A stretch of 61,604 bases of DNA from the NCBI GenBank assembly GCA_024685655.1, contig JAIKVO010000055.1:1-61604 (forward strand). The letters are read 5' to 3'. Below the pieces are notes generated by a model that had not been told where the DNA came from, searched no databases, and was given only the letters and a program-made list of their open reading frames with translations. Source of the stretch: Treponemataceae bacterium (GTDB lineage Bacteria > Spirochaetota > Spirochaetia > Treponematales > Treponemataceae). A program made the translations under genes and the position numbers. Of this stretch, positions 1,064-60,405 are shown in pieces (the first letter of the stretch is position 1; every line of letters begins with the position of its first letter).

Positions 1064-1066
1064 TTT

Positions 1067-2368: not shown

Positions 2369-2371
2369 GAA

Positions 2372-3523: not shown

Positions 3524-3554
3524 AATATCTCCTATTTATTTGCAATAGCAAACT

Positions 3555-4742: not shown

Positions 4743-4744
4743 TT

Positions 4745-7266: not shown

Positions 7267-7268
7267 TT

Positions 7269-38724: not shown

Positions 38725-40593
38725 TTAGTTTCTTTTTTTTGAAGCCAGTGCTTTTTTTGAGGACTGCTTTATATTCAGAAAAAGAGTTTTCTCAGTTTCA
38801 TATCCGGCAGGAATTTCTAGCTTCCAAAAGAAAGTGAAACAAGTTGCATAGGGCGTTTTTTCATTTAAAACTGGTTGGATACAAATTCCGGCATTTTCAT
38901 TAGGCTCAAACGTAAACACTGTTGAAGTTTTTAAATCTGTAATCTGGCAACAGGATACATCGTGCTGATGTATAAAAATCTGATCAGCGCAAGAGGCAAT
39001 ATTCGTCTCTGAAGAAATTACTTCTATACATCGGTTTTTTATATCATAATCAATTAGAGCAAGGTTAGATTCAACTGCAAAAAGACATTTCAAATATTCA
39101 GAGCTCTTATTTCGGATTATATACTGTACTTGAATTGAATTGTCGGTAAAGATATATTTTTTTCTTAATTTAATAATCTGATGTTTTTTGCCGTAAGTCC
39201 CTTCGGCTTCAAGAACGAGTTCCTGCCTGATTCTTGAAAAAGACACTTCTTTATACGCAATTTCTGGGAACACAGTATTCACCAATTGTTTTCCGTTTTG
39301 ATACTGTTCGGAGAAAGAATTCTTATCAATAAGAAAATCTGTGAAAACTTTTTTAGGATAAAAGCCTTTATCACGTTCACAAATGATAGAATAATTTCTG
39401 TTATACGATTTAACATCAAGCTCGAAAACAGCACCACCCTCTGATGTCAGAAATGAATTATAGACTGGAGTCCGACAGATATACTCCATATTTCCGTCCA
39501 TATCAAGATCGAACGAAGTTAAAAGTGTTTCTTGTTTTGAGCCAGCTTCTTTTATCAGTTTTTCTGCAATAAGCAGGTGGTTATATGCCTGCTGTCTGAT
39601 TTTCTGCTGCTCTATAGAAGAAAGATTTTCGTTCCAATATGCGGAGCGTTCTTGTGCTTTCCAAAGTTCTTCCCTTGCTGCTTTTTTCCTGGCTTTGTCA
39701 CCACGGCACTGATTCACTTCATTTGAAATCTGGATCATCCTTGAATACAATCTGAAAGCTTCTGGATTCCGCGCTATAATTTCCTTTGCGGGACGCCCAT
39801 TCTTGCTGGAGCCAGATGGTATGAACGCTCTTGTATATATATTACAATTCTTGAAATACTGTGAAGTCGTACATAATGTAATATTACCTTTCGCAGATTC
39901 AACGAAACGTTCAAGCCATCCGTTTTTTATTATGAACGAAAGCTGGTCAGGCATGAACAAAGTACTAATTGTGGTAGCAGTTTTGTTTCCAGCAAGTTTA
40001 GAAAACACCGATATGTATTCTTCACATGAATCAGAAGCAGAAGGAACAATATTCTTGCATAGAGGAAGAATTTTTATAGTCTTTCCATATTCCTCAACGA
40101 TTATTGGCTTAGATGAAAACGCCTGACTCTGATATTCCTGGGACAATAGTGACACATCAAGCAAAGCATAATCCATACCACATGTGTACAAGCTTGTTAT
40201 AAGCGATGAATCCCATGCACTGCTCGTGAGCCAAGCCCCTCTAGGTTTTTTACCGAATAATTTGCGTATAGCAGTAGTAAGCATCTCAATCTGGCCAACT
40301 TTGTCCACAGGAAGAAGAAGCGGCAATATCGGATCGTAAAATCCACCACCAGTAATTTCGATTTGTTTGCGAGAAGATAGTTCGGATATCAGCTCTATCG
40401 CTTCTGGATGTTTTTTTTCAAGCCATTCCGCTTTTCTTCCAGAAATAGCGACCGTTAGATAGCAATCAGGGTGAGAATACAAAAATGACAGTATGTGCTT
40501 TAAATGATCTTGATATTGAGATTCCTCATCAGAATCATTTATGATTCCATCAGAATCTATTCTAAGGACGAAACAGACATTTATACTATCCAT
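38725..40593 (-). CDS. GH57-family (alpha-amylase / 4-alpha-glucanotransferase-like) protein with substituted catalytic motifs
   Basis: RKQIEIT resembles GH57 region II (GQLEIV). GAWLTSSAW resembles region III (WLTERV). ERSAYWNE resembles region V (CNDAYWH). The start is taken at MDSINV (40593); the ORF track allows 40614. Confidence 0.6.
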   Translation of the reverse strand: MDSINVCFVLRIDSDGIINDSDEESQYQDHLKHILSFLYSHPDCYLTVAISGRKAEWLEKKHPEAIELISELSSRKQIEITGGGFYDPILPLLLPVDKVGQIEMLTTAIRKLFGKKPRGAWLTSSAWDSSLITSLYTCGMDYALLDVSLLSQEYQSQAFSSKPIIVEEYGKTIKILPLCKNIVPSASDSCEEYISVFSKLAGNKTATTISTLFMPDQLSFIIKNGWLERFVESAKGNITLCTTSQYFKNCNIYTRAFIPSGSSKNGRPAKEIIARNPEAFRLYSRMIQISNEVNQCRGDKARKKAAREELWKAQERSAYWNENLSSIEQQKIRQQAYNHLLIAEKLIKEAGSKQETLLTSFDLDMDGNMEYICRTPVYNSFLTSEGGAVFELDVKSYNRNYSIICERDKGFYPKKVFTDFLIDKNSFSEQYQNGKQLVNTVFPEIAYKEVSFSRIRQELVLEAEGTYGKKHQIIKLRKKYIFTDNSIQVQYIIRNKSSEYLKCLFAVESNLALIDYDIKNRCIEVISSETNIASCADQIFIHQHDVSCCQITDLKTSTVFTFEPNENAGICIQPVLNEKTPYATCFTFFWKLEIPAGYETEKTLFLNIKQSSKKALASKKRN

Positions 40594-40698
40594 CAAGAAC
40601 CTTCCATAGTGCAACTTTGTAAAATTTCAAACTGAAAAATACTAAAACCCGTGAGATAATATAGGTTTCCGAACAGGTCTAATGATAAATCAGAATAT

Positions 40699-41325
40699 CT
40701 ATAATTTAAAGCCTTTGGCAAAAGGATTTGTGATTTTTTTAATACATTTTCTCGGACACTTTTTCGCCATCTCAAGAGTCAATGCATCATCTTTGTTGCA
40801 CATATCGCATGAAGTACATCCTACAGAACAATTATCACAGTTTTCACCTTTCGGCAAAGAACATTGTATAAAGTATTCTTTTTCCCGTGGAATTAGCTCT
40901 ATTATATTCTGCGGACAATGAGGGATGCATTCGCCACATCCGTTACATGACTCCATGACAACTGCCGTTCCGTTTTTTATAATTATCGCATGTTGCGGAC
41001 AAAATGTTACACATGTACCGTATCCTATACAACCCCATTTGCAAAATCTTTCTTTGCCATAAATCTCTGAGAAAAGACGGCAATCTGTCATTTCGCGATG
41101 TTCCAAAAGCTTCTCATTGTTGTTTCTGTCCGGAGAGCATTTTACGACCGCGCAAAAATCTGTCTCATTGTTATTTGTTACAGGTTCGATCAAATCATTA
41201 AGGAAGTCTTTTTCATCTTTTGAGAAAACCATTTCTGGATTGAAACGAAAATAAATAAATAAAAGGAAGCTAAGGCCACAAACAGCAAGTATAATCAATA
41301 TGCAGAATAAAAAAGCCAAAAACAT
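40699..41325 (-). CDS. rnfB: RnfB-like membrane-anchored polyferredoxin
   Basis: N-terminal TM helix, CKWGCIGYGTCVTFCP, CNGCGECIPHCP and an extra CDNCSVGCTSCDMC cluster. It is the last gene of the CDGEAB order. Confidence 0.65.
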   Translation of the reverse strand: MFLAFLFCILIILAVCGLSFLLFIYFRFNPEMVFSKDEKDFLNDLIEPVTNNNETDFCAVVKCSPDRNNNEKLLEHREMTDCRLFSEIYGKERFCKWGCIGYGTCVTFCPQHAIIIKNGTAVVMESCNGCGECIPHCPQNIIELIPREKEYFIQCSLPKGENCDNCSVGCTSCDMCNKDDALTLEMAKKCPRKCIKKITNPFAKGFKL

Positions 41326-41879
41326 CAGAACACCTCGACATTAAGCCACGAAACATTGACCGCCAATAATATGAATAGAATCGCGGCAATACAAATGAAA
41401 AGAATTGCGCCATCTTTGAAACTTGGATAAACCATTGAGTTTTTCATCTTCCATCTGATTGCGTATATAATAGGAAGCATACAGAAAAATGAAAGAATGC
41501 ATGCAAGTGAAATCAACAATGCATTACCGAACGTTATTCCTTCATTCATGGATAAAAGCAAGACACAATACGAAAAGTAAAAACCCGTGACATTCTTTTT
41601 AAGAAATCTTGCAGAAAACTCTGTAATTACTATCGATATAAGATAAATGATGAAAAAACAAAAGAAAGGATATAGCTCTGTCAGCTCGTTTGGTACAAGG
41701 ATATACGAAGTTATTGGCCAACATATACAAAGAGAGATTACTATTGTGATTATTTCTTTTGATAGGAAAAAAAGCGCATCCTGAGGCTTTTTTGAGAAAA
41801 CAAATATTTTGTTAAGACCGATTCCATACACGAATACAGCAGAGGATATAAAAAGATAGAAAAAAATTACGTTAAACAT
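41325..41879 (-). CDS. rnfA: RnfA-like membrane subunit (divergent)
   Basis: FSKKPQDA resembles VSKKLETA, ITEFSARFLKK resembles QFTEMVVRK, and FKDGAILFICIAA resembles FRGNAIALITAG. There is a 1-nt overlap with rnfB. Confidence 0.6.
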   Translation of the reverse strand: MFNVIFFYLFISSAVFVYGIGLNKIFVFSKKPQDALFFLSKEIITIVISLCICWPITSYILVPNELTELYPFFCFFIIYLISIVITEFSARFLKKNVTGFYFSYCVLLLSMNEGITFGNALLISLACILSFFCMLPIIYAIRWKMKNSMVYPSFKDGAILFICIAAILFILLAVNVSWLNVEVF

Positions 41880-41882
41880 ACG

Positions 41883-42485
41883 CTAATCCTTTCTCCTTGC
41901 AATCTCAATCTTTCTGTTAATAAAAAAGAACAAAGCGACGAACAATCCAGTAAGTATTAAGGCACCTGATATAGTCGAGAAAAAGAATGATAGAGTGTCG
42001 GCTTTTACGAACGGATATTTATATATATGTATTCCATCTCTAAAAGGTAGAGAAAAAGAACCATACGCAAGAAATTCTCTTATTATGGCTATAACACCAG
42101 CTATTCCAGAAATAATCCCCGAATTCCGCATATTGACAGCAAAAAGATTCGAATTGTAGTTTTCTTTTGGCTCAAGAATATGACCTGTAAGGAAAGAAGA
42201 AACTGGCGCGAGATAAATGACAAAACCTATTGTAAAAGCGATTATAGGTGAATAAAGAATTATAAACTGTTTAAACAGGATTGTCATAGAAATCATAAAA
42301 ACGACAAGCAGCATTGGCTCTAAATTCTGAAGGTCAAGTTTCCCTATGAACATTTTAAGTGCCGTTCCAGAAAGCATGACAAAATTCACAGTCAACAAAA
42401 TGATTAATGTATATGCAAACCTTGATGGCAACGGCACGATAAAAGTAAGAATTGCAGTCGTGAACATAAAAATCGATTTTTTCAT
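41883..42485 (-). CDS. rnfE: RnfE-like membrane subunit (divergent, contains no cysteine)
   Basis: Assigned by size, position and AIIREFLAYGSF, which resembles SLREIIGNGTL. The start is taken at MKKSIF (42485), after the SD AAGGAA; the ORF track allows 42530. Confidence 0.55.
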   Translation of the reverse strand: MKKSIFMFTTAILTFIVPLPSRFAYTLIILLTVNFVMLSGTALKMFIGKLDLQNLEPMLLVVFMISMTILFKQFIILYSPIIAFTIGFVIYLAPVSSFLTGHILEPKENYNSNLFAVNMRNSGIISGIAGVIAIIREFLAYGSFSLPFRDGIHIYKYPFVKADTLSFFFSTISGALILTGLFVALFFFINRKIEIARRKD

Positions 42486-42489
42486 TTTC

Positions 42490-42960
42490 TTAATTTCCTT
42501 TGGAAATAAGTAACGGTATTTGTTTTGCACAATAATTCAGCTGAGTTTCGGATGCATTGTAATCCAAACCGCCATCTTCTGATAAAAAGTGTGTATTTGC
42601 AGCATATCCTGCAAAAGAACCAACCTCATCACCATCAAAATACGTAAACACAGCCACTGTAGGACCAGATATTCCTGTAAGCCTTATGAGGACAGCATTT
42701 CCGTTTACGCCAGTTTCAGAATTTACGATTGAAAAAATAGCCGCAGAAACTGTAGCCGGTGTTTTTATCGGAACATAATCCCCTACTTCATACAATGTGT
42801 CATATTTTGACGTTAATACAGTAACCACGCTTTCACGTAATTTTGTTTTCCATGTATTTCTTGAAATAATTGTGAATATCGCAAGAAGGAAAAAAATGGT
42901 AAGTACAATTACTGTAAATGCGCCATATCTATGTATTAGAAGCTTTGTTTCTGCATTCAT
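42490..42960 (-). CDS. rnfG: RnfG-like subunit (short, divergent)
   Basis: N-terminal TM anchor. GISGPTVAVFTY resembles the GYSG...V stretch of FMN_bind domains. It occupies the position between the D and E subunits. Confidence 0.45.
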   Translation of the reverse strand: MNAETKLLIHRYGAFTVIVLTIFFLLAIFTIISRNTWKTKLRESVVTVLTSKYDTLYEVGDYVPIKTPATVSAAIFSIVNSETGVNGNAVLIRLTGISGPTVAVFTYFDGDEVGSFAGYAANTHFLSEDGGLDYNASETQLNYCAKQIPLLISKGN

Positions 42961-44000
42961 TTTTGTAACTCCTGTTTTTTAACGAAGAAAGTCATGTAAA
43001 ACCAATCTTCGATAAGCTGGATAAGTGGCGAAATTACATTCACAACTAAAACTACAAACATGGAACCGATATGTCCTGTTCCGCATCCGTTAATAAAAAA
43101 TGATATTATTCCAGCACCTGCAGCATACACAATCTTGCCGGGAATACTTGTTGGAACAGTACCAGCCCATGGCAGCATAAAAAATGCGCATATCAATGTA
43201 CCGCTTGTACATAATGCAAGCAGAATATCTCCGGCATTGAATATGTGTCCGAACGGAACAAGACCGAAAAGCCTGACACAAATCGCATAAACTGCAAGAA
43301 AGACCGTAGGAATAATCCAGTCTATCATATCAAATGAGATAAGTATAATTGTCGCAAAGAGAGTGAGCAAATTGAACCGGAATCCGGCAATTACACTTCC
43401 ATTATCCCAGATCAGCGATATATATCCTTCTGGCAATACAAGCCCTGTAAATTTGAAGACGTATTTATTCAAAAACAAAGTTATTGCTTTATCTGCAGGA
43501 AGAACAGAAAATGTTCCGTCACTTACAAGATTAGAGAAAGCATTCTCAGCTTTAAGATAATCGCGGGAAACAAGAAACCCCGGAAAAGAACTACTGTTAA
43601 GCAAGAAAAGGACTATAACTGAAAGCATTGCCGGATTAATCCATGAGAATGCGAATCCGCCAGAAATATACTTAGAAAGCAAAAGAACAACAGGAACTAC
43701 AAAAAACACAGCAACAGGCGGATAATCCTGAGGAATAAACATACCGATGAACAAACCTTGAAGAAGAACGATAAAATCAAGCTTGAATTTTGTATGCTTA
43801 AGGCATGTGTTAATTAAATCAGCAACTACTGAAGCAAGAATAGAAACAAGAATTATTACGAGCGAGTTGTAGCTTTTCGTCAAAAAAAGCATGACAATCT
43901 GCGGAATAAAAAGCAACAGTGACATTTTCGCGCCATCTTTTACTGATGGTTTAGTATTATAGAATGGTGTAAGCGTCAAAAACTGATATTTTTTTTTCAT
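42957..44000 (-). CDS. rnfD: RnfD-like polytopic membrane subunit (divergent)
   Basis: NqrB/RnfD-like polytopic profile with SGGFAFSWINPAM. The start is taken at MKKKYQF (44000), giving an ATGA overlap with the rnfC stop; the ORF track allows 44087. Confidence 0.6.
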   Translation of the reverse strand: MKKKYQFLTLTPFYNTKPSVKDGAKMSLLLFIPQIVMLFLTKSYNSLVIILVSILASVVADLINTCLKHTKFKLDFIVLLQGLFIGMFIPQDYPPVAVFFVVPVVLLLSKYISGGFAFSWINPAMLSVIVLFLLNSSSFPGFLVSRDYLKAENAFSNLVSDGTFSVLPADKAITLFLNKYVFKFTGLVLPEGYISLIWDNGSVIAGFRFNLLTLFATIILISFDMIDWIIPTVFLAVYAICVRLFGLVPFGHIFNAGDILLALCTSGTLICAFFMLPWAGTVPTSIPGKIVYAAGAGIISFFINGCGTGHIGSMFVVLVVNVISPLIQLIEDWFYMTFFVKKQELQK

Positions 44001-45259
44001 TTCAAGTTTCCTCTGACTATAGCAATTGACTGAAAAAGCGGAAGCCTGGCTGGACAACTTGTGTTGCATAGACCGCATTGTGTGCATAAAAGCGATGTTT
44101 TCAAGAACGGTTCAGGAAGTTCCGTATGATAATAGTAATAATCAAAAAAAGCGTCTGGATGCAGTTTTACAGGACAAGCCCTATGACAATTTCCGCAATG
44201 AATACAATGAGTCTGCTCTTGGTCTGGAACAGATTTTTTTGAAAGTATCGTTATAGATTTGACAATACTTGTGACAGGAGTGTCGGGGTCGCGTATTGCA
44301 GTTCCCTTAATCAGACCGTTAATTATTATTTTATAAGGTTTTTTCTTGAAACCATCGCACTGCTCAACAAGTTTCCTTATAGGTGTTCCGATACGTACTT
44401 TGAACATTATATTCTTTTTTAATGATGTTCCCGAAACTTGAACGAAACGCTCCAGGAGGGGTTTTTGCAAAACTACGGCTTCGTACGCAGCAAAGGCAGT
44501 GGAACTGTCTATAGCTATAGAAGTCTTGTATTCATATTTATTATTTTCGAGCAGAATATCTATCTCGCGCTTTCCGCACATTAGTTGTTTTGATTCAGGA
44601 ACTACGATGAATACCATTTTATCATGCGGAATCTGCGCTGGGATTTTTATGGATTTATCATGAAATATAAAAATCTTCTCTGCGGACATTGCTTTAGCAA
44701 TAACTTCCACACCTTCAAGAATTTCCTGAGTTTTTTTAACAGTTATAAAACTGTCTGTACATATGCTTGGATCTGCATCAAAAAGACGTACCGAAAGAGC
44801 TGGCCTGGAATTGTAATCATTATTAAGTTCCAGTATTTCTCTTGCTAACGATTGCGGTGTATCAAATGTGTTTATTACGCCATTTTCTGCCAAAATCGAG
44901 CATAAATCAACGGAAGACAAACTATCCCAACTACGGCTTCTGAGTTTTTTCCCTTTGAAGGTGAACTCGCCTTCAAGTTTTATTACTGCCACTTCAGAAA
45001 GCTTGCCATCTGGCATTGGAAGCGTCTTATACTCTGTTAATACTCCAGGTACTGGTGCATGAACAGAGGCACTGTATGCATCGAACTTTCCCAGAACTTG
45101 TCCTTCTGTTACTCGTGAATTCACAGCCGTTTTTTGAACGCTCAAATTTCCTTCCGCATCTTTCAGAGGCACAAAATCATACAATGGCATGTATGCATCA
45201 ACGGCTTCTGAAAATGATGTATCTGGAATTATTATTTTTTTCTTTATTGTTATACTCAT
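43997..45259 (-). CDS. rnfC: RnfC-like subunit with two 4Fe-4S motifs but no glycine-rich nucleotide motif
   Basis: N-terminal barrel with VHAPVPGVL, and C-terminal CIHCGNCHRACP and CTQCGLCNTSCP. It is the first gene of the CDGEAB order. Confidence 0.65.
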   Translation of the reverse strand: MSITIKKKIIIPDTSFSEAVDAYMPLYDFVPLKDAEGNLSVQKTAVNSRVTEGQVLGKFDAYSASVHAPVPGVLTEYKTLPMPDGKLSEVAVIKLEGEFTFKGKKLRSRSWDSLSSVDLCSILAENGVINTFDTPQSLAREILELNNDYNSRPALSVRLFDADPSICTDSFITVKKTQEILEGVEVIAKAMSAEKIFIFHDKSIKIPAQIPHDKMVFIVVPESKQLMCGKREIDILLENNKYEYKTSIAIDSSTAFAAYEAVVLQKPLLERFVQVSGTSLKKNIMFKVRIGTPIRKLVEQCDGFKKKPYKIIINGLIKGTAIRDPDTPVTSIVKSITILSKKSVPDQEQTHCIHCGNCHRACPVKLHPDAFFDYYYYHTELPEPFLKTSLLCTQCGLCNTSCPARLPLFQSIAIVRGNLK

Positions 45260-46713
45260 TTTTTGCAGCCTTTTATCAATTTAAGTATCAATAATATCAC
45301 AAACAGCACGAAAAGTGAAATTATCGCCAGGACAGATGTGATATCATGCGATGTATCACCCGCTTTGATATATTTTGTAGTAAAAAGCTTTCCATGCGAT
45401 GACAGGAAACGTTCCGCCCCACCATTCTGATAGAATGCTTCCGATATCCTATCCAAAAAATCATCGTCGAAAGTCTCGATAATTTTCTGTGAAGCATGAA
45501 TGCCTTCAGCATCTTCCGTAAACATAGGAATCGAAATAGTATCTCCAGGTTCTATTTCATAATACGAAGACTCATCCGTAAGACGTACATACGGAGAGCG
45601 GGTATTAAGCCAATATTCGTCAATGAAATCCCCCATATCAGGTGAATTTGACACATCAGAATCCGTATTAATATCCTGCTCTATTGTCCGAAGCTTCTTC
45701 AATTCTGAATACGAGGAAACATTTATTCCCTGAGTCTCAGTATACTCCGAAGGAGCTGGCAGATACAAGCCGTTTTTTTCCACACTCTTAATTACACCTG
45801 ATGAAATAAAAAAGAATACGGTCATTACAACTGCAGCGACAGCGAGCGATGAAACAGCGAAAATCGTAACTCGTCTATAAGGCTGAATGTTTCTTGACGT
45901 TAATATCGGCACATATCTGAAATGACAGTTGGAAATAGAAAGCAATTCTATATTTTTTATTGAAACCCACAATGAAATACAAGAAGCGACAGATAGCAAG
46001 AAAAGAATTGTAAGATGCATTCCGTTCGTCGTAATTGAAAACATTGAGACTACAAAGCAAATTATTATTGCAGGGTTCAGCAATGCCTTTGAAATACCAT
46101 GTTTCCTACCAGAATATTGTTCTGCGGTATATAATGCGAATAAAACACAAATGGCCCCAGTCGCAGAGCTATAGAGCGGACACCATAAAGAAAACAGCAC
46201 AAGAGGAACGGCACAGACTGTATGAATAAAAGGAATCCGCCCAAAAATCATCAAAAGAACCAAAACAGAAAAACAAAGTATCGGATACAGATATGGGTAT
46301 TGTGCAACAGAATCTGTGCCAAACGACAAAGAATTCTTTTTAAGCCGATTTATAACATCCGTTGCAATATCATCTGGAACGTATATTATTTTGTACTCGC
46401 CAGATTTGTCATAAAAGAAAAAATCACGTATTTCCTTCATAGAGAAGTTTCTTTTCTCAATTGGCTCGCTTCCTGAATTGATCAAGCTCTTCCATACATG
46501 ATGATAATCAGCATTTCCGAACACTATAAGATCCAGAAGGTCCTCATCATTGATTGATGAGCGAATCTCGTCATCAGAGCATTGCGACGGAAAGTAGATT
46601 ACTTTGTACTGTTCCCATATACGCATTGACGGCTGAACTCGGAAAAGGAAAACTATCATCATAAGGATTGAGGCGATTAACAGGAAAAGCAAACCTTTAA
46701 GGACGAATTTCAT
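45256..46713 (-). CDS. polytopic membrane protein of unknown function, translationally coupled to rnfC
   Basis: 485 aa. It has an N-terminal TM segment, a soluble segment, about 6 TM helices, a second soluble segment and a C-terminal TM segment. There is a 4-nt overlap with the rnfC start. Confidence 0.6.
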   Translation of the reverse strand: MKFVLKGLLFLLIASILMMIVFLFRVQPSMRIWEQYKVIYFPSQCSDDEIRSSINDEDLLDLIVFGNADYHHVWKSLINSGSEPIEKRNFSMKEIRDFFFYDKSGEYKIIYVPDDIATDVINRLKKNSLSFGTDSVAQYPYLYPILCFSVLVLLMIFGRIPFIHTVCAVPLVLFSLWCPLYSSATGAICVLFALYTAEQYSGRKHGISKALLNPAIIICFVVSMFSITTNGMHLTILFLLSVASCISLWVSIKNIELLSISNCHFRYVPILTSRNIQPYRRVTIFAVSSLAVAAVVMTVFFFISSGVIKSVEKNGLYLPAPSEYTETQGINVSSYSELKKLRTIEQDINTDSDVSNSPDMGDFIDEYWLNTRSPYVRLTDESSYYEIEPGDTISIPMFTEDAEGIHASQKIIETFDDDFLDRISEAFYQNGGAERFLSSHGKLFTTKYIKAGDTSHDITSVLAIISLFVLFVILLILKLIKGCKK

Positions 46714-46720
46714 TTTTTAC

Positions 46721-47179
46721 TTACAAGACAGAAAAAGCTATTCCAACAAATACACCTAAAAAACAGCCCATGATAACTTCTGTTGGTTTATGTCCATGAA
46801 CCTCTTTGAGCGGCGTAAAATCTTCTATCAAACCTTTTTTTTTCAATTGCATTCCAAGTTCATTCAAAGATCTTGTCTGCAAGCCGCTTGAGCGTCTTAC
46901 TCCCATTGCATCTCTTACAACAACTAATGCGAAAGCTGTGGAAAGAATAAATATATCAGATGTGATTCCGTTCCTGAACCCAATTGAAACACAAAGAGAC
47001 ATAACAAGCGCAGTATGACTGGAAGGCATTCCTCCTGTCTTCCAGAACATAAGTTCTATTAACTCTTTTAACGAATGGACTTTGCCAGAAAGTAACTTTA
47101 TTATCGTCTTTATGAATTGTGCAGAAAACCAACTGAATACCAATGACAAAAACACAGGATTCGTTAGCAATAACTGCAT
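46721..47179 (-). CDS. divergent PAP2 / DUF212 (YuiD-like) membrane protein
   Basis: MQLLLTNPVF..AQFIK, GGMPSSHTALV, VRDAMGVRR and GHKPTEV match B. subtilis YuiD as I recall it. The longer ORF-track start (47257) would overlap the divergent rlu gene. Confidence 0.75.
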   Translation of the reverse strand: MQLLLTNPVFLSLVFSWFSAQFIKTIIKLLSGKVHSLKELIELMFWKTGGMPSSHTALVMSLCVSIGFRNGITSDIFILSTAFALVVVRDAMGVRRSSGLQTRSLNELGMQLKKKGLIEDFTPLKEVHGHKPTEVIMGCFLGVFVGIAFSVL

Positions 47180-47191
47180 CTGAAACTTTGC

Positions 47192-47220
47192 TTGACCTAG
47201 CATAATTACGTAAATATTAT
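47192..47220 (+). promoter_or_regulatory. promoter immediately upstream of the rluA-family ATG
   Basis: TTGACC (47192-47197), 17 nt, TATTAT (47215-47220), 7 nt (no SD), then ATG at 47228. Confidence 0.5.
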
Positions 47221-47227
47221 ATGTTAT

Positions 47228-48223
47228 ATGGATTTTTTGCAATACACAGCCGGTCATGATGATGACGGAAGACGGCTTGACAGAGTAATAAGAATAGTCC
47301 TCAAAGAATTGCCTATGACTGAAATATACAAATACATACGGAAAGGTCTTGTTCGTGTCAACGGCAAAAAATCAGAGTGCAGTTACAGAATAAAAAAAGA
47401 CGATCTGATAAAGATCCCAAAGATATCAGATTGCCAGACGAATACGAACAGCCAACATCTATCAGGGACTCAGAAAATTCAAAGTGTCTTTAAAAACTCT
47501 TATGTGTTATTCGTAAACAAACCTTACGGCATGGCTGTTCATGGCGGAGGTTCTTCAGGCACGTTCAATTTAGAGCAACTTGTTAAAGAACAATTCAAAA
47601 TTGAAAATTCATCTATTTCGTTCAGGACCGGTCCGCTACACAGAATTGACAGGCATACTACAGGACTCGTTGTTTTTTCACAAAATTCAGAAGGTGCGAA
47701 TATATTCTCGAATATGCTTCAAAATCATCTGGTTAAAAAGGAATATCTCACCGTACTTTGCGGTCATCTTCCTATGAAAGAAACATGGATCGATATAATA
47801 ACCGATTCTCCATATGAAGAATCTTCCAAAACACAAGGCTTTCATACAATGAGTATAATTAACTGCATATCATCAGAGGATAATAAAAAAATAGGAAAAA
47901 AAGCTCAAACCACTGCAAATCCAATTGCATACGGAAATTACGAAGGAATACCTATCACGCTTGCTTTAGTTGAAATTCAAACTGGCAGAAAACACCAAAT
48001 TCGTTGCCAATGCGCCCAGCATGGGTATCCGCTTTTAGGAGACACTGCATACAAAGGCACAAACCCGCAATCGATTAGCGGTCATTTTTTTCTTCATTCG
48101 TGGAGAATGTCATTTCCATCGGATAATAAAATAGAACTTCCAACCACAATTACTGCACCACTTCCTGAAAAATTCCGCTTTTTCATAAGAAATCACTTGT
48201 CGCAGTGTGAGTTCTCAATATAA
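47228..48223 (+). CDS. RluA-family 23S rRNA pseudouridine synthase with an S4 domain
   Basis: N-terminal S4-like RLDRVI...GLVRVNGK, and the catalytic motif HRIDRHTTGLVVF. Confidence 0.88.
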   Translation: MDFLQYTAGHDDDGRRLDRVIRIVLKELPMTEIYKYIRKGLVRVNGKKSECSYRIKKDDLIKIPKISDCQTNTNSQHLSGTQKIQSVFKNSYVLFVNKPYGMAVHGGGSSGTFNLEQLVKEQFKIENSSISFRTGPLHRIDRHTTGLVVFSQNSEGANIFSNMLQNHLVKKEYLTVLCGHLPMKETWIDIITDSPYEESSKTQGFHTMSIINCISSEDNKKIGKKAQTTANPIAYGNYEGIPITLALVEIQTGRKHQIRCQCAQHGYPLLGDTAYKGTNPQSISGHFFLHSWRMSFPSDNKIELPTTITAPLPEKFRFFIRNHLSQCEFSI

Positions 48224-48235
48224 TATATTTTGCGT

Positions 48236-49090
48236 ATGAACCTGTTGAATGATATTGTCTGGTGGGTAAAAGGTGTTACAGTTTTTGCACTTGTCGGTGA
48301 GAGCGGAACAGGCAAAAGTTTCCGTGCAAAGCTCCTGGCTCAAAAATACGGTATTGATATCATCATCGATGATGGACTTCTTATCCAGGATGATAAAATA
48401 ATTGCCGGACGTTCGGCAAAAAAAGAAAAAACTTTCCTTGCAGCCGTAAAAATCGCACTTTTTGATGATAAGTCACACCGCGATGATATTGCAAAAGCAT
48501 TACAAAAAATGAAAAACATAAAAAAAATACTTATACTCGGAACTTCCGAAAAGATGGTCAACAAAATAGCATTACGCCTTCAACTTCCAGCACCGTCCAA
48601 AATCATACATATCGAGGAGATTGCTACACAGGAAGAAATTGACAAAGCCATACGCACGAGACGTATTGAGGGGAAACATGTAATACCAGTTCCAGCTATT
48701 GAGATAAAACGAAATTATCCGCAAATTTTCTATAATACTGTTAAAGTATTTTTGAAGCGAAAAAACAAAAACAGCAGCAAGATTTTTGAAAAATCAGTTG
48801 TAAGACCGGAATTTTCAAAAAAAGGACGAATCAGTATATCTGAAGCGGCACTGTCTCAAATGGTAATGCACTGTGTGAATGAATTTGACAAGCAAATTCG
48901 CGTAAAAAAGCTTACAATAAAAACAGACACGCAAGGTTACAGATTTATAATTACAATAGATGTTCCGTTCGGAACTCAGCTAACAGGAAAAATTCATAGC
49001 ATGCAGCAATATATAATTGACAACATAGAAAAATTCACAGGTATTTTGATTGAAGAAGTGAGCATTATTATCGATAAAATAACACAATAA
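48236..49090 (+). CDS. HPr-kinase-like P-loop domain fused to an Asp23/Gls24-like domain
   Basis: GESGTGKSFRAKLLAQKYGIDIIIDDGLLI closely resembles the HprK/P C-terminal P-loop (GESG.GKSE.AL.L...GH.L.ADD). The C-terminal ~100 aa (ISISEAALSQMVMHCVNEF...IEEVSIIID) resemble Asp23. ATG 48236 is preferred over TTG 48230. Confidence 0.55.
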   Translation: MNLLNDIVWWVKGVTVFALVGESGTGKSFRAKLLAQKYGIDIIIDDGLLIQDDKIIAGRSAKKEKTFLAAVKIALFDDKSHRDDIAKALQKMKNIKKILILGTSEKMVNKIALRLQLPAPSKIIHIEEIATQEEIDKAIRTRRIEGKHVIPVPAIEIKRNYPQIFYNTVKVFLKRKNKNSSKIFEKSVVRPEFSKKGRISISEAALSQMVMHCVNEFDKQIRVKKLTIKTDTQGYRFIITIDVPFGTQLTGKIHSMQQYIIDNIEKFTGILIEEVSIIIDKITQ

Positions 49091-54676: not shown

Positions 54677-54705
54677 CTTTAAAAGTTTTCTGATTGTGGT
54701 ATAAT
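54677..54705 (+). promoter_or_regulatory. extended -10 promoter for the P83/100-like gene
   Basis: TGgTATAAT (hexamer 54700-54705) with a weak -35 (CTTTAA). A ~70-nt leader precedes the SD AGGAG and ATG at 54782. Confidence 0.5.
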
Positions 54706-54781
54706 GTTTTTATTCGAAAAGATTTTTGTCAGTAAACTTGCTACGGAATTATTTCGATATGGAAGTACACAGGAGAAAAAT

Positions 54782-56521
54782 ATGAAAAAATATGTATTTG
54801 CATTTTTGATTTTGAGTATATTTATTTTCGGAGCAGCGGCTTCTGTAAATGTTGACAGGCAGGAGCTTGAAAATACAGTCACAAATCCTGATATAATTGA
54901 ATTCATCAACTATTCTGGACCCCATTCCAGAATTGATACAAAAGAGCAGATCCTTAATATAGGAAGAAACCTTGGAAAAGAAGTTGCGGAGAATAGAGAC
55001 CATCGAATAGAAACAGGCAATGCCCCTAAGTATTACCTTATTCATTCTGTATATCCTGATGTTGATCAGGGACTGGATGCAGATATCCTTATTCTAGGCG
55101 ACAAAGCAGAAGTTGACCATATTAAAAACCTTCGCCTTATTATTACAGGTTTTCTTACAGCTGCATATGGCTATAGCGACACTGATGCATCTACGATTGC
55201 GACATTTATCACTGTTTACAATGCTGTTTATCGTGGAAAAATTGCTACTTTGCTCACTAAGTATAAATCTGAAGTTCTTTCAGAGCTTTCAGCAGAAAAA
55301 GTTGGCCTTTCTGTGAACTATGCTGATTGGGCTGGTAGAACTCAAATAATAATTCCACTTCTTGATCCTGATAAAGGTGGATTAAGTACGATCGATACAA
55401 CAATCATTTCAGACTCTTCGGTTATTCAGTCTATGCGCGAGGAAGACGAACGCATGGTAGATGAAAGAAAGAACATGGTTGACTTGAAAGAACGTGAAGC
55501 TGATGCTGCTGAAGAAGATGCTCGCGAAGCACAGAGAGAGGCTGTAGCCGCCAGAAAAGCAGCCGAACAAGCAGCACAGGAAGCGGTAGCAGCGCAGCAG
55601 GTTGCGGAACAGGCTGCTCAGCAAGCTCAGGAAGCTAAAAAAGAAGCTCAACAGGCTGCTGTAGAAGCAGAACAGAAAAAGAAAGAAGCTCAGGAAGCTG
55701 TAAAAGAAGCTCAGAAAAATCCACAGGATCAGAAGAAACAGGAACAGGCTGAACAGAAGAAACAAGAAGCACAACAAGCTGAGCAGAAGAAAGAAGAAAA
55801 ACAACAAGAAGCTGAACAAAAACAGCAAGAAGCTGAGAAAACTACAATTATAGCTGAACAAAAGCAGGAAGAAGCAGAACAGAAGCAGGAAGAAGCGGAA
55901 CAGAAGGAGGAAGAAGCTGCTGAAAGCCAAGCTTTCGCTGACAAAAAGCGGACTGAGGCCGTTATTGAGCGTACAGCTATAGCTAATGACAAACAGAAAA
56001 ACATATCTGATGCAATCAAGGCTGCTAAAATAGTCACAACATATGGACTTAAGCTCTCTGATGTTGAGAATATGTACTCCTCTATCGTTCTCATTGACGT
56101 AGCGAACGGAAATGTTGTCAAAGAATCTCCTGTATCAGTAATTCTTAACAGAACGATGTTGCCAGTTGATAACGGATTTATAGCCATTGCCGGAAAAAAT
56201 CCGGATGCTGATTATCAAACTTCTGCTATTAAATTAGTGTTGCTTGACAATGTAGATATGGAGATTATCAAGCAGAGCGAAGAGGATGTCTCTTCTAAAT
56301 CGATTCTTCTTGAAAATAACGATACAATTTATGTTATCGTCAGAGATTCAAACGGCTGGGTTCTTGCCAGCTACGATAAAGAGCTTACACTTAAGGCAAA
56401 GTCAGAAGTTAAAGTCATTGAATCAACGCCTGCAATTATCTCTGATACAGGTATTGCCGTTACTTCATCCGAGGGAACTGTTGTTCTTCTTGACCCTATT
56501 ACATTAGAGAAGAAATGGTAA
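54782..56521 (+). CDS. P83/100-family spirochaetal antigen homologue
   Basis: Signal peptide, then VDRQELENTV..IIEFINYSGP. Also NLRLIITGFLTAAYGYSDTDASTIATFITVYNAVYRG and NYADWAGRTQIIIPL. These closely parallel Borrelia P83/100 as I recall it (VDREKLKDFV..LEFVNYKGP, NLRRILTGYL...ITIYNAVYRG, YSQWAGKTQIFIPL). The centre is an Ala/Glu/Gln/Lys-rich coiled coil. Confidence 0.8.
   Translation: MKKYVFAFLILSIFIFGAAASVNVDRQELENTVTNPDIIEFINYSGPHSRIDTKEQILNIGRNLGKEVAENRDHRIETGNAPKYYLIHSVYPDVDQGLDADILILGDKAEVDHIKNLRLIITGFLTAAYGYSDTDASTIATFITVYNAVYRGKIATLLTKYKSEVLSELSAEKVGLSVNYADWAGRTQIIIPLLDPDKGGLSTIDTTIISDSSVIQSMREEDERMVDERKNMVDLKEREADAAEEDAREAQREAVAARKAAEQAAQEAVAAQQVAEQAAQQAQEAKKEAQQAAVEAEQKKKEAQEAVKEAQKNPQDQKKQEQAEQKKQEAQQAEQKKEEKQQEAEQKQQEAEKTTIIAEQKQEEAEQKQEEAEQKEEEAAESQAFADKKRTEAVIERTAIANDKQKNISDAIKAAKIVTTYGLKLSDVENMYSSIVLIDVANGNVVKESPVSVILNRTMLPVDNGFIAIAGKNPDADYQTSAIKLVLLDNVDMEIIKQSEEDVSSKSILLENNDTIYVIVRDSNGWVLASYDKELTLKAKSEVKVIESTPAIISDTGIAVTSSEGTVVLLDPITLEKKW
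55853..55915 (+). repeat. 3 x 21-nt in-frame tandem repeat (AEQKQEE)n inside the P83/100-like gene
   Basis: gctgaacaaaagcaggaagaa / gcagaacagaagcaggaagaa / gcggaacagaaggaggaagaa. The repeat is embedded in a ~450-nt low-complexity E/Q/K/A region (about 55490-55960). Confidence 0.85.
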
Positions 56522-59548: not shown

Positions 59549-60331
59549 ATGAAAAAACACATCCAAGGAAAATATCCTTTCTTTCTTGCAATGCTGCTAT
59601 TGACACTTGCCGCCATGCCCTTGTCAGCAGAAAGCATATCGGTTCCTGCATACATAATCGACACCGTTTTCAACAGCAAGCTCAAAAAAGATGAAGCCGC
59701 ATCCCTTTCAAAAGGAGAATTCATAATTCGGAACATCGGCAATTACAGAAAGATTTGCCTAAAGGAAGACCTGTCCGACAAGGCAGCCTTAATCAACTCT
59801 GATTTTAAGAGGATAAAACCATCATATCTTGCGGAGACTATACAAATACGTCCGCTCACAGAAAGTGCCGCCGGAGACATTCGCAAACTGCACGGAATTC
59901 TGACAGATGTTTCAAATTATACAGGTATACCTTATTATTCAACATATAATAAAGTTACCATCAATCTTTATGCTTCCGTAGAGTTAAAAAAACATTACAG
60001 GATCGGTGATAACGACTTTCTAAACGTGAATTTTGAAATGAAACCTTTCAATATAATCAACACAGACATAACTGCTGAAAGCACATCAAGGTATCTTTTC
60101 TACAGGAATGTGAACACTACTTCAATAAAATACAAAGGCTTTATTACATGCGTTGATCCAGGCGAGTTTGTGGCATACATTTATATTTTTAACTGCGGAA
60201 ACTGGCAGATAATATATGGAATTGGAGGAGCTGATGCCCCATCGTTTTTTTTCTTCAAAAGCAGGCTGAACGCCGCATTTATCGACAGAATAACATCGTT
60301 ATGCAAGTATATGTGCAAGTTTTTGGATTAA
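59549..60331 (+). CDS. secreted protein of unknown function, tandem paralogue 1
   Basis: It has a signal peptide (..LTLAAMPLSAES). By eye it is about half identical to the next gene over its full length. Confidence 0.7.
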   Translation: MKKHIQGKYPFFLAMLLLTLAAMPLSAESISVPAYIIDTVFNSKLKKDEAASLSKGEFIIRNIGNYRKICLKEDLSDKAALINSDFKRIKPSYLAETIQIRPLTESAAGDIRKLHGILTDVSNYTGIPYYSTYNKVTINLYASVELKKHYRIGDNDFLNVNFEMKPFNIINTDITAESTSRYLFYRNVNTTSIKYKGFITCVDPGEFVAYIYIFNCGNWQIIYGIGGADAPSFFFFKSRLNAAFIDRITSLCKYMCKFLD

Positions 60332-60405
60332 TCGTTATGTAGCATTTCGTTTAATTTTGTGTTATACAATTATGTAATAGAATGCTTCTTTTTTGGGTGG
60401 TATTT

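What the first reader, a model, noticed from the sequence alone, without database searches (positions are those of the whole stretch)
40699..47179. Rnf-like CDGEAB operon lacking its canonical flavin, NADH and intramembrane Fe-S motifs
Gene order, sizes, overlapping stop and start codons and scattered motifs identify an rnfC-D-G-E-A-B cluster. Every cofactor signature I can recall for Rnf/Nqr is absent, apart from ferredoxin-type CxxCxxCxxxCP motifs.

- RnfC-like: the region that should read GxGGAGFP...NGAECEP reads NTFDTPQS...LFDADPS. The whole protein contains no GG dipeptide.
- RnfD-like and RnfG-like: neither contains an [ST]GA[ST] covalent-FMN attachment motif. The G subunit is also short, at 156 aa.
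- RnfA-like: GLNK replaces GLCP, and SMNEG replaces TTNCA.
- RnfE-like: the protein contains no cysteine at all. The four-Cys intersubunit Fe-S centre shared by RnfA/RnfE (NqrD/NqrE) therefore cannot form.

Two more membrane genes are tightly coupled upstream. One is a YuiD-like divergent PAP2 protein, and 7 nt separate its stop from the next gene's start. That next gene is a 485-aa polytopic protein of unknown function, with a 4-nt overlap into rnfC.

The frames are intact and the genes are translationally coupled, which argues against pseudogenes. This may be an Rnf-derived membrane complex that no longer works as a ferredoxin:NAD+ oxidoreductase and has taken on another role.
Basis: partly seen in the sequence, partly recalled or inferred. 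Interest (0 to 1): 0.75.

Follow-up and report, generated by a model that had tools for sequence, protein, structure and literature searches.

The report
Cofactor-stripped Rnf complex of treponemes
This Treponema-family gene cluster descends directly from the Rnf respiratory ion pump but has lost nearly every site that holds its electron-carrying cofactors while staying under strong selection, so it probably cannot do the job still assigned to it in models of syphilis-spirochaete energy metabolism.

Summary
Window 40699-47257 (minus strand) holds eight coupled genes: DUF212, a 485-aa membrane protein, then RnfC-, D-, G-, E-, A- and B-like genes.

Lost sites:
- RnfC-like: the FMN/NAD(H) loops.
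- D- and G-like: no flavinylation motif.
- E- and A-like: no cysteine at the four [2Fe-2S] ligand columns.
- RnfB-like: the small [4Fe-4S] domain that normally feeds RnfA/E.

Retained: the two [4Fe-4S] motifs of RnfC and the distal polyferredoxin of RnfB.

New findings:
1. The losses are clade-wide, in 118/118 nearest RnfC relatives and 16/16 loci, all Treponemataceae or unclassified spirochaete MAGs. No intermediates were seen.
2. The cluster is the positional orthologue of a fully canonical spirochaetal rnf operon that already carries the same two upstream genes. Those genes are therefore ancestral.
3. One subclade has also lost rnfB.
4. Every gene is under purifying selection.

By gene order and description this is the "noncanonical Rnf" noted for T. 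pallidum in 2015, still drawn in 2025 as a flavodoxin:NAD+ sodium pump. The sequences argue against that activity. The real function is unknown. My best guess is a non-electron-conducting membrane module with a retained Fe-S redox element.

The parts
46721..47179 (-). DUF212 / YuiD-like divergent PAP2 membrane protein. The longest ORF runs to 47257 and overlaps the divergent rluA-like gene. The likely start is Met at 47179 (or 47203).
   Evidence: Pfam PF02681, E 4.7e-41. 42% identical to the DUF212 gene upstream of a canonical spirochaetal rnf operon. Present in the same position in every complete locus.
45256..46713 (-). 485-aa polytopic membrane protein of unknown family. It has N- and C-terminal TM helices, a central bundle of about 5-6 TM helices and two soluble regions. 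It is a spirochaete-type rnf-associated gene.
   Evidence: No Pfam, NCBIfam or PDB hit. The family HMM hits the 480-aa gene upstream of canonical rnfC in L014 (E 2e-16, nearly full length). 282 representatives at 50% identity in a 1.8-billion-protein library, all about 410-510 aa. The AF2 model is poor (pLDDT 45).
43997..45259 (-). RnfC-like subunit. It keeps the RnfC_N barrel, a degenerate Nuo51-like domain, the SLBB domain and two intact [4Fe-4S] motifs. The FMN/NAD(H) loops are deleted or replaced (INTF, RLFDADPS, INGLIKG).
   Evidence: TIGR01945 scores 170.7 bits against a cutoff of 246. 7zc6_C E 1.8e-35, with the alignment showing the lost loops. Family-wide motif state.
42957..44000 (-). 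RnfD-like subunit (347 aa from the ATGA-overlap start; the longest ORF extends to 44087). The flavinylation loop is replaced.
   Evidence: PF03116 scores 135 bits, above the cutoff. TIGR01946 scores 80 bits against a cutoff of 207. The family profile aligns to canonical RnfD in two blocks that skip the DAVTSASPLG loop. No [ST][GS]A[ST].
42490..42960 (-). Protein in the RnfG position (156 aa): one TM helix plus a small beta-sheet domain. It has no FMN_bind signature and no flavinylation motif.
   Evidence: No Pfam or NCBIfam hit. hhalign against canonical RnfG gives probability 0.7%. AF2 pLDDT 81: a TM helix, 5 strands and a C-terminal helix. Foldseek puts RnfG chains 8ahx_G and 8rb8_G at ranks 3-4, but only at E ~0.3.
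41883..42485 (-). RnfE-like subunit (200 aa from Met at 42485; the longest ORF has a GTG at 42530). It contains no cysteine.
   Evidence: The family HMM hits canonical RnfE of L014 (E 1.9e-4 among the locus ORFs). hhalign E 4.4e-4 over 138 columns, including the IRE..G.G motif. 8ahx_E full length, E 0.96. Cys columns shown.
41325..41879 (-). RnfA-like subunit (184 aa). Neither canonical Cys ligand is present.
   Evidence: The family profile against PDB gives RnfA 8ahx_A E 2.1e-6, 7zc6_A 1.7e-3, 9eri_A 6e-3 and NqrE 7xk3_E 0.013, all full length. Cys columns shown.
40699..41325 (-). Truncated RnfB-like polyferredoxin (208 aa, 21 Cys). It has an N-terminal TM helix plus the distal Fe-S domain, but lacks the small FeS (PF04060) domain.
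   Evidence: NF005503 (RnfB) scores 72 bits and matches model positions 94-230 only. The family profile aligns to residues 93-269 of canonical RnfB, E 7e-33. The gene is absent in 6 related loci.
38725..40614 (-). GH57 alpha-glucan enzyme. It is the conserved downstream neighbour of the operon and is not claimed as part of the complex.
   Evidence: Pfam PF03065, PF09094 and PF09095. It follows rnfB, or rnfA where rnfB is lost, in canonical and noncanonical loci.

Best explanation
**Shown.** This is the Treponemataceae orthologue of the spirochaetal rnf operon (DUF212, a ~480-aa membrane protein, then rnfC-D-G-E-A-B). In this lineage the following have been lost together:
- the FMN/NAD(H) pocket of RnfC;
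- the covalent-FMN sites of RnfD and RnfG;
- the four cysteines of the RnfA/RnfE [2Fe-2S] centre;
- the small [4Fe-4S] domain of RnfB that normally injects electrons into RnfA/E.

In one subclade rnfB itself is gone. All remaining genes are kept intact, translationally coupled and under purifying selection.

**Inferred.** The complex cannot run the known Rnf cycle: ferredoxin/flavodoxin to NAD+ electron transfer through the membrane, with Na+/H+ pumping gated by the [2Fe-2S] centre.

**Most likely mechanism (inference, about 35-40%).** The D/G'/E'/A' membrane core, probably with the 485-aa protein, survives as a membrane module that no longer conducts electrons. It may act as an ion or solute conduit, or as a scaffold. 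The RnfC-like subunit, with two invariant [4Fe-4S] clusters, and the RnfB-like polyferredoxin where present, stay attached on the cytoplasmic face. There they could act as a redox-responsive element that reads the ferredoxin/flavodoxin pool. The precedent is NqrA, the cofactor-less RnfC homologue in Nqr.
For: **Orthology**
- A canonical operon has the same neighbours: divergent rluA, DUF212, a ~480-aa TM gene upstream and GH57 downstream. It carries every canonical motif: GLGGATFP, NAVECEP, TSAS in RnfD, SGAS in RnfG, GLCP and xNC in RnfE and RnfA, and PF04060 in RnfB.
- A second canonical locus has the same two upstream genes.
- Family HMMs of the window's 485-aa, D-, E-, A- and B-like proteins hit their canonical counterparts specifically.

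**Losses**. All 16 noncanonical loci lack all motifs. No intermediates were seen.

**rnfB lost in 6 loci**, including Treponema sp. HNW and OMZ 840.

**Selection and retention**
- pN 0.10-0.27 against pS 0.65-0.86.
- 116/116 full-length RnfC-like representatives keep both CxxCxxCxxxC motifs, and 109/116 share the new motif R[LM][FY]DxDP.
- The G-like subunit is the least conserved, at 21-30% identity between subclades.

**Established knowledge**
- Membrane-subunit cofactors are described as 'strictly conserved' between RNF and NQR. The [2Fe-2S] centre is the gating site. The small RnfB domain feeds RnfA-E. NqrA has no cofactor (review PMC12174285).
Against: - No functional data exist for any member.
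- Sequence cannot exclude non-covalently bound flavins in the D- or G-like subunits, or unusual ligands.
- The strict conservation of eight Cys in RnfC-like, and of about 16 Cys in RnfB-like, argues that some electron transfer persists. That fits a rewired conduit as well as a sensor.
- No transport-type signature was identified in the membrane subunits.
- A canonical rnf or nqr copy elsewhere in the same genome could not be checked. The window itself has none.
- Homology of the G-position protein to RnfG is not demonstrable.
Confidence: 0.4

Rival explanations
1. Rewired electron conduit. Reduced flavodoxin, or ferredoxin via RnfB-like, still delivers electrons to the RnfC-like [4Fe-4S] pair. 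The electrons then pass to non-covalently bound flavin in the RnfD-like subunit and on to a separate periplasmic flavoprotein or acceptor. The complex would re-oxidise the low-potential carrier without NAD+ and without the RnfA/E loop.
For: - Both [4Fe-4S] motifs are conserved in 116/116 RnfC-like proteins.
- RnfD-like remains a clear PF03116 member, with many canonical structural motifs retained.
- T. pallidum has a periplasmic flavin-trafficking enzyme and a flavinylated lipoprotein, TP0171. Its authors proposed non-covalent or cryptic flavin binding for its Rnf (PMC4436053).
Against: - The two flavin sites that would form exactly this conduit, the FMN sites of RnfD and RnfG, are the ones lost. 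The G-like subunit is small and poorly conserved.
- No acceptor module has been added to the operon.
- No flavin-binding signature was detected.
Confidence: 0.27
2. It is still a genuine Na+/H+-translocating ferredoxin/flavodoxin:NAD+ oxidoreductase whose cofactor sites are cryptic, as currently drawn for T. pallidum.
For: - The Rnf gene order is retained, the Fe-S motifs in C and B are kept and selection is strong.
- The literature model says so (PMC7512555, PMC11717252).
- The same source cites an archaeal Rnf that lacks the RnfD flavinylation motif.
Against: - The glycine-rich FMN loop of RnfC is deleted, not merely substituted. NxxExEP and GGPMMG are also replaced in every member.
- No Cys, or other conserved metal ligand, sits at the four [2Fe-2S] columns.
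- The RnfB input domain or the whole gene is lost.
- Scores fall far below all curated Rnf cutoffs.
Confidence: 0.08
3. The cluster is a decaying relic with no function.
For: Many catalytic motifs are lost simultaneously. Annotation pipelines call the proteins hypothetical.
Against: - All frames are intact in 16 loci spanning 33-100% RnfC identity, and translational coupling is retained.
- pN is far below a saturated pS.
- New invariant motifs have arisen.
- The cluster is reportedly retained and co-transcribed in the reduced T. pallidum genome.
Confidence: 0.02
4. The proteins in the G, and perhaps E, positions are not diverged Rnf subunits. They would be unrelated small membrane proteins that replaced the originals.
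For: No sequence or profile similarity of the G-like family to RnfG. The E-like link to RnfE is weak.
Against: - Position, length class and topology are the same as for the canonical subunits.
- Among the locus ORFs the E-like HMM hits only canonical RnfE, and the hit includes the IRE..G.G motif.
- RnfG chains are among the top Foldseek hits for the G-like model, though not significantly.
- The A-like paralogue is clearly RnfA.
Confidence: 0.1

Closest known systems
Canonical Rnf complex (Na+/H+-translocating ferredoxin:NAD+ oxidoreductase; structures 7zc6, 8ahx, 9eri)
   Same: - Gene order is C-D-G-E-A-B.
- RnfC keeps its N-terminal barrel, SLBB domain and two [4Fe-4S] motifs.
- RnfD is a PF03116 member.
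- RnfA is homologous by profile.
- RnfB keeps its TM helix and distal polyferredoxin.
- The cluster is the positional orthologue of a canonical spirochaetal operon.
   Different: - No FMN/NAD(H) pocket in RnfC.
- No flavinylation site in D or G.
- No [2Fe-2S] cysteines in A/E.
- No small FeS domain in RnfB, and no rnfB gene at all in some lineages.
- All curated rnf HMM cutoffs are missed.
T. pallidum 'noncanonical Rnf' (tp0147/0148-tp0153; Deka et al. 2015, PMC4436053)
   Same: - Treponemal.
- RnfC and RnfD are recognisable, followed by three small TM proteins.
- An extra gene lies upstream of rnfC.
- No flavinylation motif.
- The description fits the rnfB-less loci found here, where rnfA is followed directly by the next gene.
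   Different: - The T. pallidum sequences could not be fetched, so membership is inferred from the published description.
- The papers read here do not report loss of the RnfC NAD(H)/FMN site or of the A/E cysteines. They still assign flavodoxin:NAD+ activity.
Na+-NQR, in particular NqrA
   Same: It is a precedent for an RnfC homologue that stays in the complex after losing redox cofactors. The membrane core is homologous.
   Different: - Nqr keeps all membrane-core cofactors and gained NqrF as an NADH input.
- Here the core cofactors are lost and no new input or output module was gained.
- RnfC-like keeps its Fe-S clusters, whereas NqrA lost them.
Methanosarcina acetivorans-type Rnf lacking the RnfD flavinylation motif (cited in PMC4436053)
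   Same: It shows that one covalent-flavin site can be dispensable in a working Rnf.
   Different: That complex keeps the other cofactor sites, according to the literature (not tested here). In this cluster every site is gone.

Membership tests
Rnf complex (ferredoxin:NAD+ oxidoreductase) | rnfC-D-G-E-A-B genes in one operon | tested here: met
   The order and the coupling are confirmed. The same order is found in 16 related loci and in the canonical L014.
Rnf complex (ferredoxin:NAD+ oxidoreductase) | RnfC FMN/NAD(H) site (GxGGAxFP, NxxExEP, GGPMMG) | tested here: not met
   The loop is deleted or replaced in the alignment to 7zc6_C and 8ahx_C. 0/118 relatives have GxGG or NxxExEP.
Rnf complex (ferredoxin:NAD+ oxidoreductase) | RnfC two [4Fe-4S] clusters (2 x CxxCxxCxxxCP) | tested here: met
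   Residues 352-363 and 392-403. 116/116 relatives keep both.
Rnf complex (ferredoxin:NAD+ oxidoreductase) | Covalent FMN on RnfD (Thr/Ser in [ST][GS]A[ST]) | tested here: not met
   There is no such motif. The aligned column is not conserved. The loop is skipped in the profile alignment to canonical RnfD.
Rnf complex (ferredoxin:NAD+ oxidoreductase) | RnfG FMN_bind domain with a flavinylated Thr/Ser | tested here: not met
   No PF04205 hit even at E<=1. No motif. hhalign probability 0.7%. The fold search is inconclusive.
Rnf complex (ferredoxin:NAD+ oxidoreductase) | Four Cys of RnfA/RnfE ligating the intramembrane [2Fe-2S] | tested here: not met
   The E-like protein has 0 Cys. The A-like protein has no Cys at either ligand column. 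This holds in all 16 loci.
Rnf complex (ferredoxin:NAD+ oxidoreductase) | RnfB: TM helix, small [4Fe-4S] ferredoxin-like domain (PF04060) and distal polyferredoxin | tested here: not met
   The TM helix and the distal domain are present. PF04060 is absent, and only model positions 94-230 are matched. The gene is missing in 6 loci.
Rnf complex (ferredoxin:NAD+ oxidoreductase) | Curated NCBIfam cutoffs (TIGR01945 rnfC, TIGR01946 rnfD, TIGR01943 rnfA, TIGR01944 rnfB) | tested here: not met
   Scores against cutoffs: 170.7/246, 80.4/207, 14.6/229 and 30.1/68.7 bits. There is no hit at all for E or G.
Rnf complex (ferredoxin:NAD+ oxidoreductase) | Ferredoxin:NAD+ oxidoreductase activity coupled to ion translocation | not testable with these tools
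   This needs biochemistry on the purified complex or on membranes.
Pfam NQR2_RnfD_RnfE (PF03116) | Score above the gathering threshold | tested here: met
   RnfD-like scores 135.3 bits against a threshold of 27.7.
Na+-NQR | NqrF (FAD/[2Fe-2S] NADH input) and a cofactor-less NqrA | tested here: not met
   There is no NqrF-like gene in or next to the cluster. RnfC-like keeps its Fe-S motifs, unlike NqrA.
T. pallidum-type noncanonical Rnf | Treponemal operon with RnfC and RnfD, three small TM proteins and an upstream extra gene, and without a flavinylation motif | tested here: met
   The architecture and the lack of motifs match the description in PMC4436053. The family includes T. maltophilum, T. 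brennaborense and T. bryantii.
T. pallidum-type noncanonical Rnf | Direct sequence similarity to TP0148-TP0153 | not testable with these tools
   The T. pallidum sequences were not retrievable. The single genome-contig scan returned 13 loci, none from T. pallidum.
DUF212 (divergent PAP2) | PF02681 above threshold | tested here: met
   140.3 bits against a threshold of 26.5.

The most novel reading that the evidence does not exclude
A whole bacterial family, very probably including the syphilis agent, keeps an Rnf-derived 'pseudo-respiratory' complex in which the transmembrane electron path has been dismantled. The membrane core would have been repurposed for a non-redox task, such as Fe-S-gated ion or solute conduction. 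In that case the Rnf-based chemiosmotic step in current models of T. pallidum energy conservation does not exist as drawn.
Probability: 0.35. Interest if true: 0.8.

Novelty: new variant of a known kind. Interest (0 to 1): 0.62.

Why it matters
- Rnf and Nqr are regarded as having strictly conserved membrane cofactors across well over a billion years (PMC12174285). An orthologue that has shed all of them, yet is kept under purifying selection across a family, would be a rare natural 'pseudo-enzyme' version of a respiratory complex. It would also be a handle on what the Rnf membrane core can do without redox chemistry.
- If the T. pallidum proteins share the state seen here, as the published description suggests, that step needs another acceptor or another explanation.
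- The question can be tested in cultivable relatives that carry the same cluster: T. denticola-group strains, T. maltophilum, T. brennaborense and T. bryantii.

Tried and rejected
The 9-sequence alignment worked but used one narrow peptide pattern. It returned only 13 loci and none from T. pallidum or T. denticola.
2. The AF2 model of the 485-aa protein, from an 11-sequence alignment, was too poor to search with (pLDDT 45). Pfam, NCBIfam and a PDB profile search gave nothing for it.
3. The AF2 model of the G-like protein was good (pLDDT 81). Foldseek against PDB gave no significant match, with RnfG chains only at E ~0.3. hhalign and HMM comparisons with canonical RnfG were negative.
4. dN/dS could not be quantified for five of the eight genes because synonymous sites are saturated against the only close DNA available, L001. 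Only pN << pS is claimed.
5. The promoter and terminator scan of the cluster was no better than shuffled controls.
6. Apparent GxGG and TSAT hits in L006, L008 and L012 lie in untranslated upstream extensions of stop-to-stop ORFs and were discarded.
7. I considered mapping the known Na+-path acidic residues of NqrB/D/E onto the family. I dropped it because I could not verify the residue correspondence with the tools.
8. Literature searches found no paper describing loss of the RnfC NAD(H) site or of the A/E cysteines in treponemes. Only the open-access library was searched.

Full report
**1. What is there**

Eight ORFs lie head to tail on the minus strand between 40699 and 47257.

| Gene | Coordinates | Size |
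|---|---|---|
| DUF212 / YuiD-like PAP2 protein | 46721-47179/47257 | - |
| Polytopic membrane protein | 45256-46713 | 485 aa |
| RnfC-like | 43997-45259 | 420 aa |
| RnfD-like | 42957-44000 | 347 aa |
| G-position protein | 42490-42960 | 156 aa |
| RnfE-like | 41883-42485 | 200 aa |
| RnfA-like | 41325-41879 | 184 aa |
| RnfB-like | 40699-41325 | 208 aa |

Pfam and NCBIfam recognise only part of the cluster.
- DUF212 scores 140 bits.
- RnfD-like scores 135 bits on PF03116, above threshold.
- RnfC-like scores 171 bits on TIGR01945, against a cutoff of 246.
- RnfB-like scores 72 bits on an RnfB model, matching only positions 94-230 of 292.
- RnfA-like reaches only E 0.01.
- The G- and E-position proteins and the 485-aa protein get no hit.

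The rest of the window is ordinary chromosomal housekeeping: shikimate pathway, mreBCD/PBP2/rodA, rpoD, dnaG, glycogen synthases and MetRS. It has no second rnf or nqr cluster.

**2. The cofactor losses are real**

- **RnfC-like.** A script confirms that the protein has no GG dipeptide. It has NTFDTPQS and LFDADPS where canonical RnfC has G-x-GGA-x-FP and N-x-x-E-x-EP, and it keeps two CxxCxxCxxxCP motifs. phmmer alignments to the solved RnfC chains (7zc6_C E 2e-35, 8ahx_C, 9eri_C) show the glycine-rich FMN loop as a deletion and NAAECEP replaced.
- **D- and G-like.** Neither protein has [ST]GA[ST], nor the looser [ST][GS]A[ST].
- **RnfA-like.** A profile of the family aligns full length to RnfA of 8ahx (E 2e-6), 7zc6 and 9eri, and to NqrE of 7xk3. 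It places Lys/Asn/Arg at the first ligand Cys (canonical GLCP) and Ile/Phe at the second (canonical TTNC).
- **RnfE-like.** The protein has no Cys at all. Its family aligns weakly but specifically to RnfE (hhalign E 4e-4, including the IRE..G.G motif). Leu/Ser/Thr/Ala sit at both Cys columns.
- **RnfB-like.** It keeps the TM helix and the Cys pattern of the distal polyferredoxin. It lacks the small PF04060 [4Fe-4S] domain. According to the 2025 RNF/NQR review, that domain is the flexible element that hands electrons to RnfA-E (PMC12174285).

**3. The losses define a family**

- The 118 nearest RnfC relatives (31-100% identity) all lack GxGG and NxxExEP. They come from Treponema, Treponemataceae and unclassified spirochaete MAGs. 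Only the two most distant hits (28-31%) are canonical.
- Of the 116 full-length members, all keep both Fe-S motifs and none has GGPxxG. 109 share the replacement motif R[LM][FY]DxDP.
- Named members include T. maltophilum ATCC 51939, T. brennaborense DSM 12168, T. bryantii and Candidatus T. scatequi. They are annotated merely as hypothetical, '4Fe-4S' or 'SLBB domain' proteins.
- I fetched 16 noncanonical loci, counting the window. Every complete one has the same order: DUF212, ~480-aa protein, C, D, G, E, A, (B). Every one lacks every motif. I saw no intermediate.
- Against the nearest locus (L001), non-synonymous differences are 0.10-0.27 per site, while synonymous sites are at or near saturation (0.65-0.86). 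All eight genes are therefore under purifying selection.

**4. It is the orthologue of a canonical Rnf, and the two upstream genes are ancestral**

- The contig encoding the canonical hit P0120, from a Spirochaetia MAG, has this layout: divergent rluA-type pseudouridine synthase | DUF212 | 480-aa membrane protein | rnfC D G E A B | GH57.
- The window has the same neighbours: rluA-like at 47228-48223 and GH57 at 38725-40614.
- That operon has all the canonical signatures:
  - GLGGATFP, NAVECEP and GGPMMG in RnfC.
  - DAVTSAS in RnfD.
  - DAISGAS and an FMN_bind domain in RnfG.
  - GLCP and xNC in both RnfE and RnfA.
  - A PF04060 domain in RnfB.
- The HMM of the window's 485-aa family hits the 480-aa protein over almost its whole length (E 2e-16). 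The DUF212 proteins are 42% identical.
- A second canonical locus (L019) also has DUF212 and a 517-aa protein upstream of rnfC.
- So the upstream pair belongs to spirochaetal rnf operons in general and does not mark the degenerate form. The 485-aa family is small, with 282 representatives at 50% identity among 1.8 billion proteins, and it is uncharacterised.

**5. Further erosion: rnfB is lost in a subclade**

In six loci the RnfA-like gene is followed directly by GH57 or another gene. These loci are Treponema sp. HNW, Treponema sp. OMZ 840, three MAGs and one metagenome (Logan) contig, L016. No RnfB-like ORF exists anywhere in them.

**6. The G-position protein**

- AlphaFold2 with 31 sequences gives a confident model (pLDDT 81). 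It shows a long TM helix, a five-stranded sheet and a C-terminal helix.
- Foldseek against PDB finds nothing significant. RnfG chains of 8ahx, 8rb8 and 8rb9 appear at ranks 3, 4 and 6, at E ~0.3.
- HMM and hhalign comparisons with canonical RnfG are negative.
- Homology to RnfG is therefore likely by position but unproven.
- It is also the least conserved subunit, at 21-30% identity between subclades.

**7. Relation to the literature**

- Deka et al. 2015 (PMC4436053) described a co-transcribed T. pallidum gene set, tp0147-tp0153. TP0152 is RnfC and TP0151 is RnfD. TP0148-TP0150 are small TM proteins, with TP0149 resembling RnfE.
- They stated that no component has a recognisable flavinylation motif and coined the term 'noncanonical Rnf'.
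- The gene order they describe fits the rnfB-less loci found here. I could not fetch the T. pallidum sequences, so this identification is an inference.
- Later papers from the same group, up to 2025, still draw the complex as a flavin-based, Na+-translocating flavodoxin:NAD+ oxidoreductase that energises ATP synthase (PMC7512555, PMC11717252).
- None of the papers I could search mentions loss of the RnfC NAD(H)/FMN site, of the RnfA/E cysteines or of the RnfB input domain.
- The 2025 RNF/NQR review does not mention spirochaetes. It calls the membrane cofactors 'strictly conserved'.

**8. How it most likely works**

*Shown.* The canonical electron path is:

RnfB clusters -> small RnfB domain -> [2Fe-2S] of A/E -> FMN of G -> FMN/riboflavin of D -> [4Fe-4S] of C -> FMN of C -> NAD+

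At the sequence level this path is interrupted at every step except the two cytoplasmic Fe-S stretches.

*Inferred.* The [2Fe-2S] centre is the element that couples electron transfer to the inward/outward switch and to ion pumping. The complex therefore cannot pump by the known mechanism, and it cannot use NAD(H) at the known site.

*Preferred reading (about 0.4 including its uncertain part).*
- The membrane core no longer conducts electrons and is kept for another membrane function, such as conduction or a scaffold role.
- RnfC-like, and RnfB-like where present, persist as a cytoplasmic Fe-S module, plausibly a redox-responsive one.
- The coordinated loss of precisely the conduit flavins, the loss of the RnfB docking domain or gene, and the weak constraint on the G-like protein all favour this reading. 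NqrA is a precedent for a cofactor-less RnfC homologue.

*Main rival (about 0.27).* A shortened conduit runs from flavodoxin/ferredoxin via the RnfC clusters to non-covalent flavin and a separate periplasmic flavoprotein. The invariant Fe-S motifs favour this.

*Other rivals.* A cryptic but genuine Fd/Fld:NAD+ pump (about 0.08), a relic (about 0.02), and non-homologous replacement of G (about 0.1, not exclusive of the others) are less likely.

**9. Verdict**

The Rnf derivation and the loss of canonical function are well founded. The upstream genes are ancestral, the variant was noticed before in T. pallidum, and a new role is unproven.
- Novelty: a new, or at least hitherto only superficially described, variant of a known kind.
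- Interest is moderate to high. It contradicts the assumed universality of the Rnf/Nqr core cofactors. It also bears directly on an open question in syphilis-spirochaete physiology that can be tested in cultivable relatives.

Noticed in passing
L006, L007 (Treponema sp. HNW), L008, L009 (Treponema sp. OMZ 840), L013, L016: downstream of the RnfA-like gene: The RnfB-like gene is completely absent in these six loci. The RnfA-like gene is followed directly by the GH57 gene, or in L016 by a TP_0126-family gene. One treponemal subclade has therefore lost the ferredoxin-input subunit as well.
   Followed up: partly
window 45256-46713; L014 4114-5556; L019 1164-2717: An uncharacterised ~460-520-aa polytopic membrane protein family sits immediately upstream of rnfC, often with a 4-nt overlap. 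It does so in both canonical and degenerate spirochaetal rnf operons. It has no Pfam or PDB match and 282 representatives at 50% identity. It is a candidate lineage-specific Rnf accessory subunit or assembly factor.
   Followed up: partly
window 46721-47257 vs 47228-48223: The longest DUF212 ORF overlaps the start of the divergently transcribed rluA-like pseudouridine synthase gene by 30 nt. Comparison with orthologues suggests the real DUF212 start is at 47179 or 47203. That leaves only about 25-50 bp between the two divergent genes.
   Followed up: partly
window 38725-40614, 26745-28355, 56623-58098: A GH57 alpha-glucan enzyme lies directly downstream of the rnf-like operon. In the canonical L014 it overlaps the end of rnfB by 14 nt. 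Two separate starch/glycogen-synthase-type genes lie elsewhere in the window. The rnf-GH57 linkage is conserved across spirochaetes and is unexplained.
   Followed up: no
window 59549-60331 and 60382-61179: Two tandem paralogues of the uncharacterised family DUF6675 (E 1e-53 and 1.5e-66).
   Followed up: no
window 54704-56521: A 605-aa homologue of the Borrelia P83/100 antigen family (PF05262, E 4e-107) in a Treponemataceae genome.
   Followed up: no
window 635-9098: A contiguous minus-strand block encodes almost the whole shikimate and aromatic amino-acid pathway. It comprises type II dehydroquinase, a shikimate dehydrogenase-kinase fusion, chorismate mutase-prephenate dehydratase, chorismate synthase, EPSP synthase, DHQ synthase, prephenate dehydrogenase and DAHP synthase.
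   Followed up: no
window 48230-49090: A 286-aa ORF with no Pfam match lies next to the rluA-like gene. A gene of similar size and position in L014 has only a faint Asp23 hit, and the equivalent gene in L017 has no Pfam hit. It looks like a conserved syntenic unknown.
   Followed up: no
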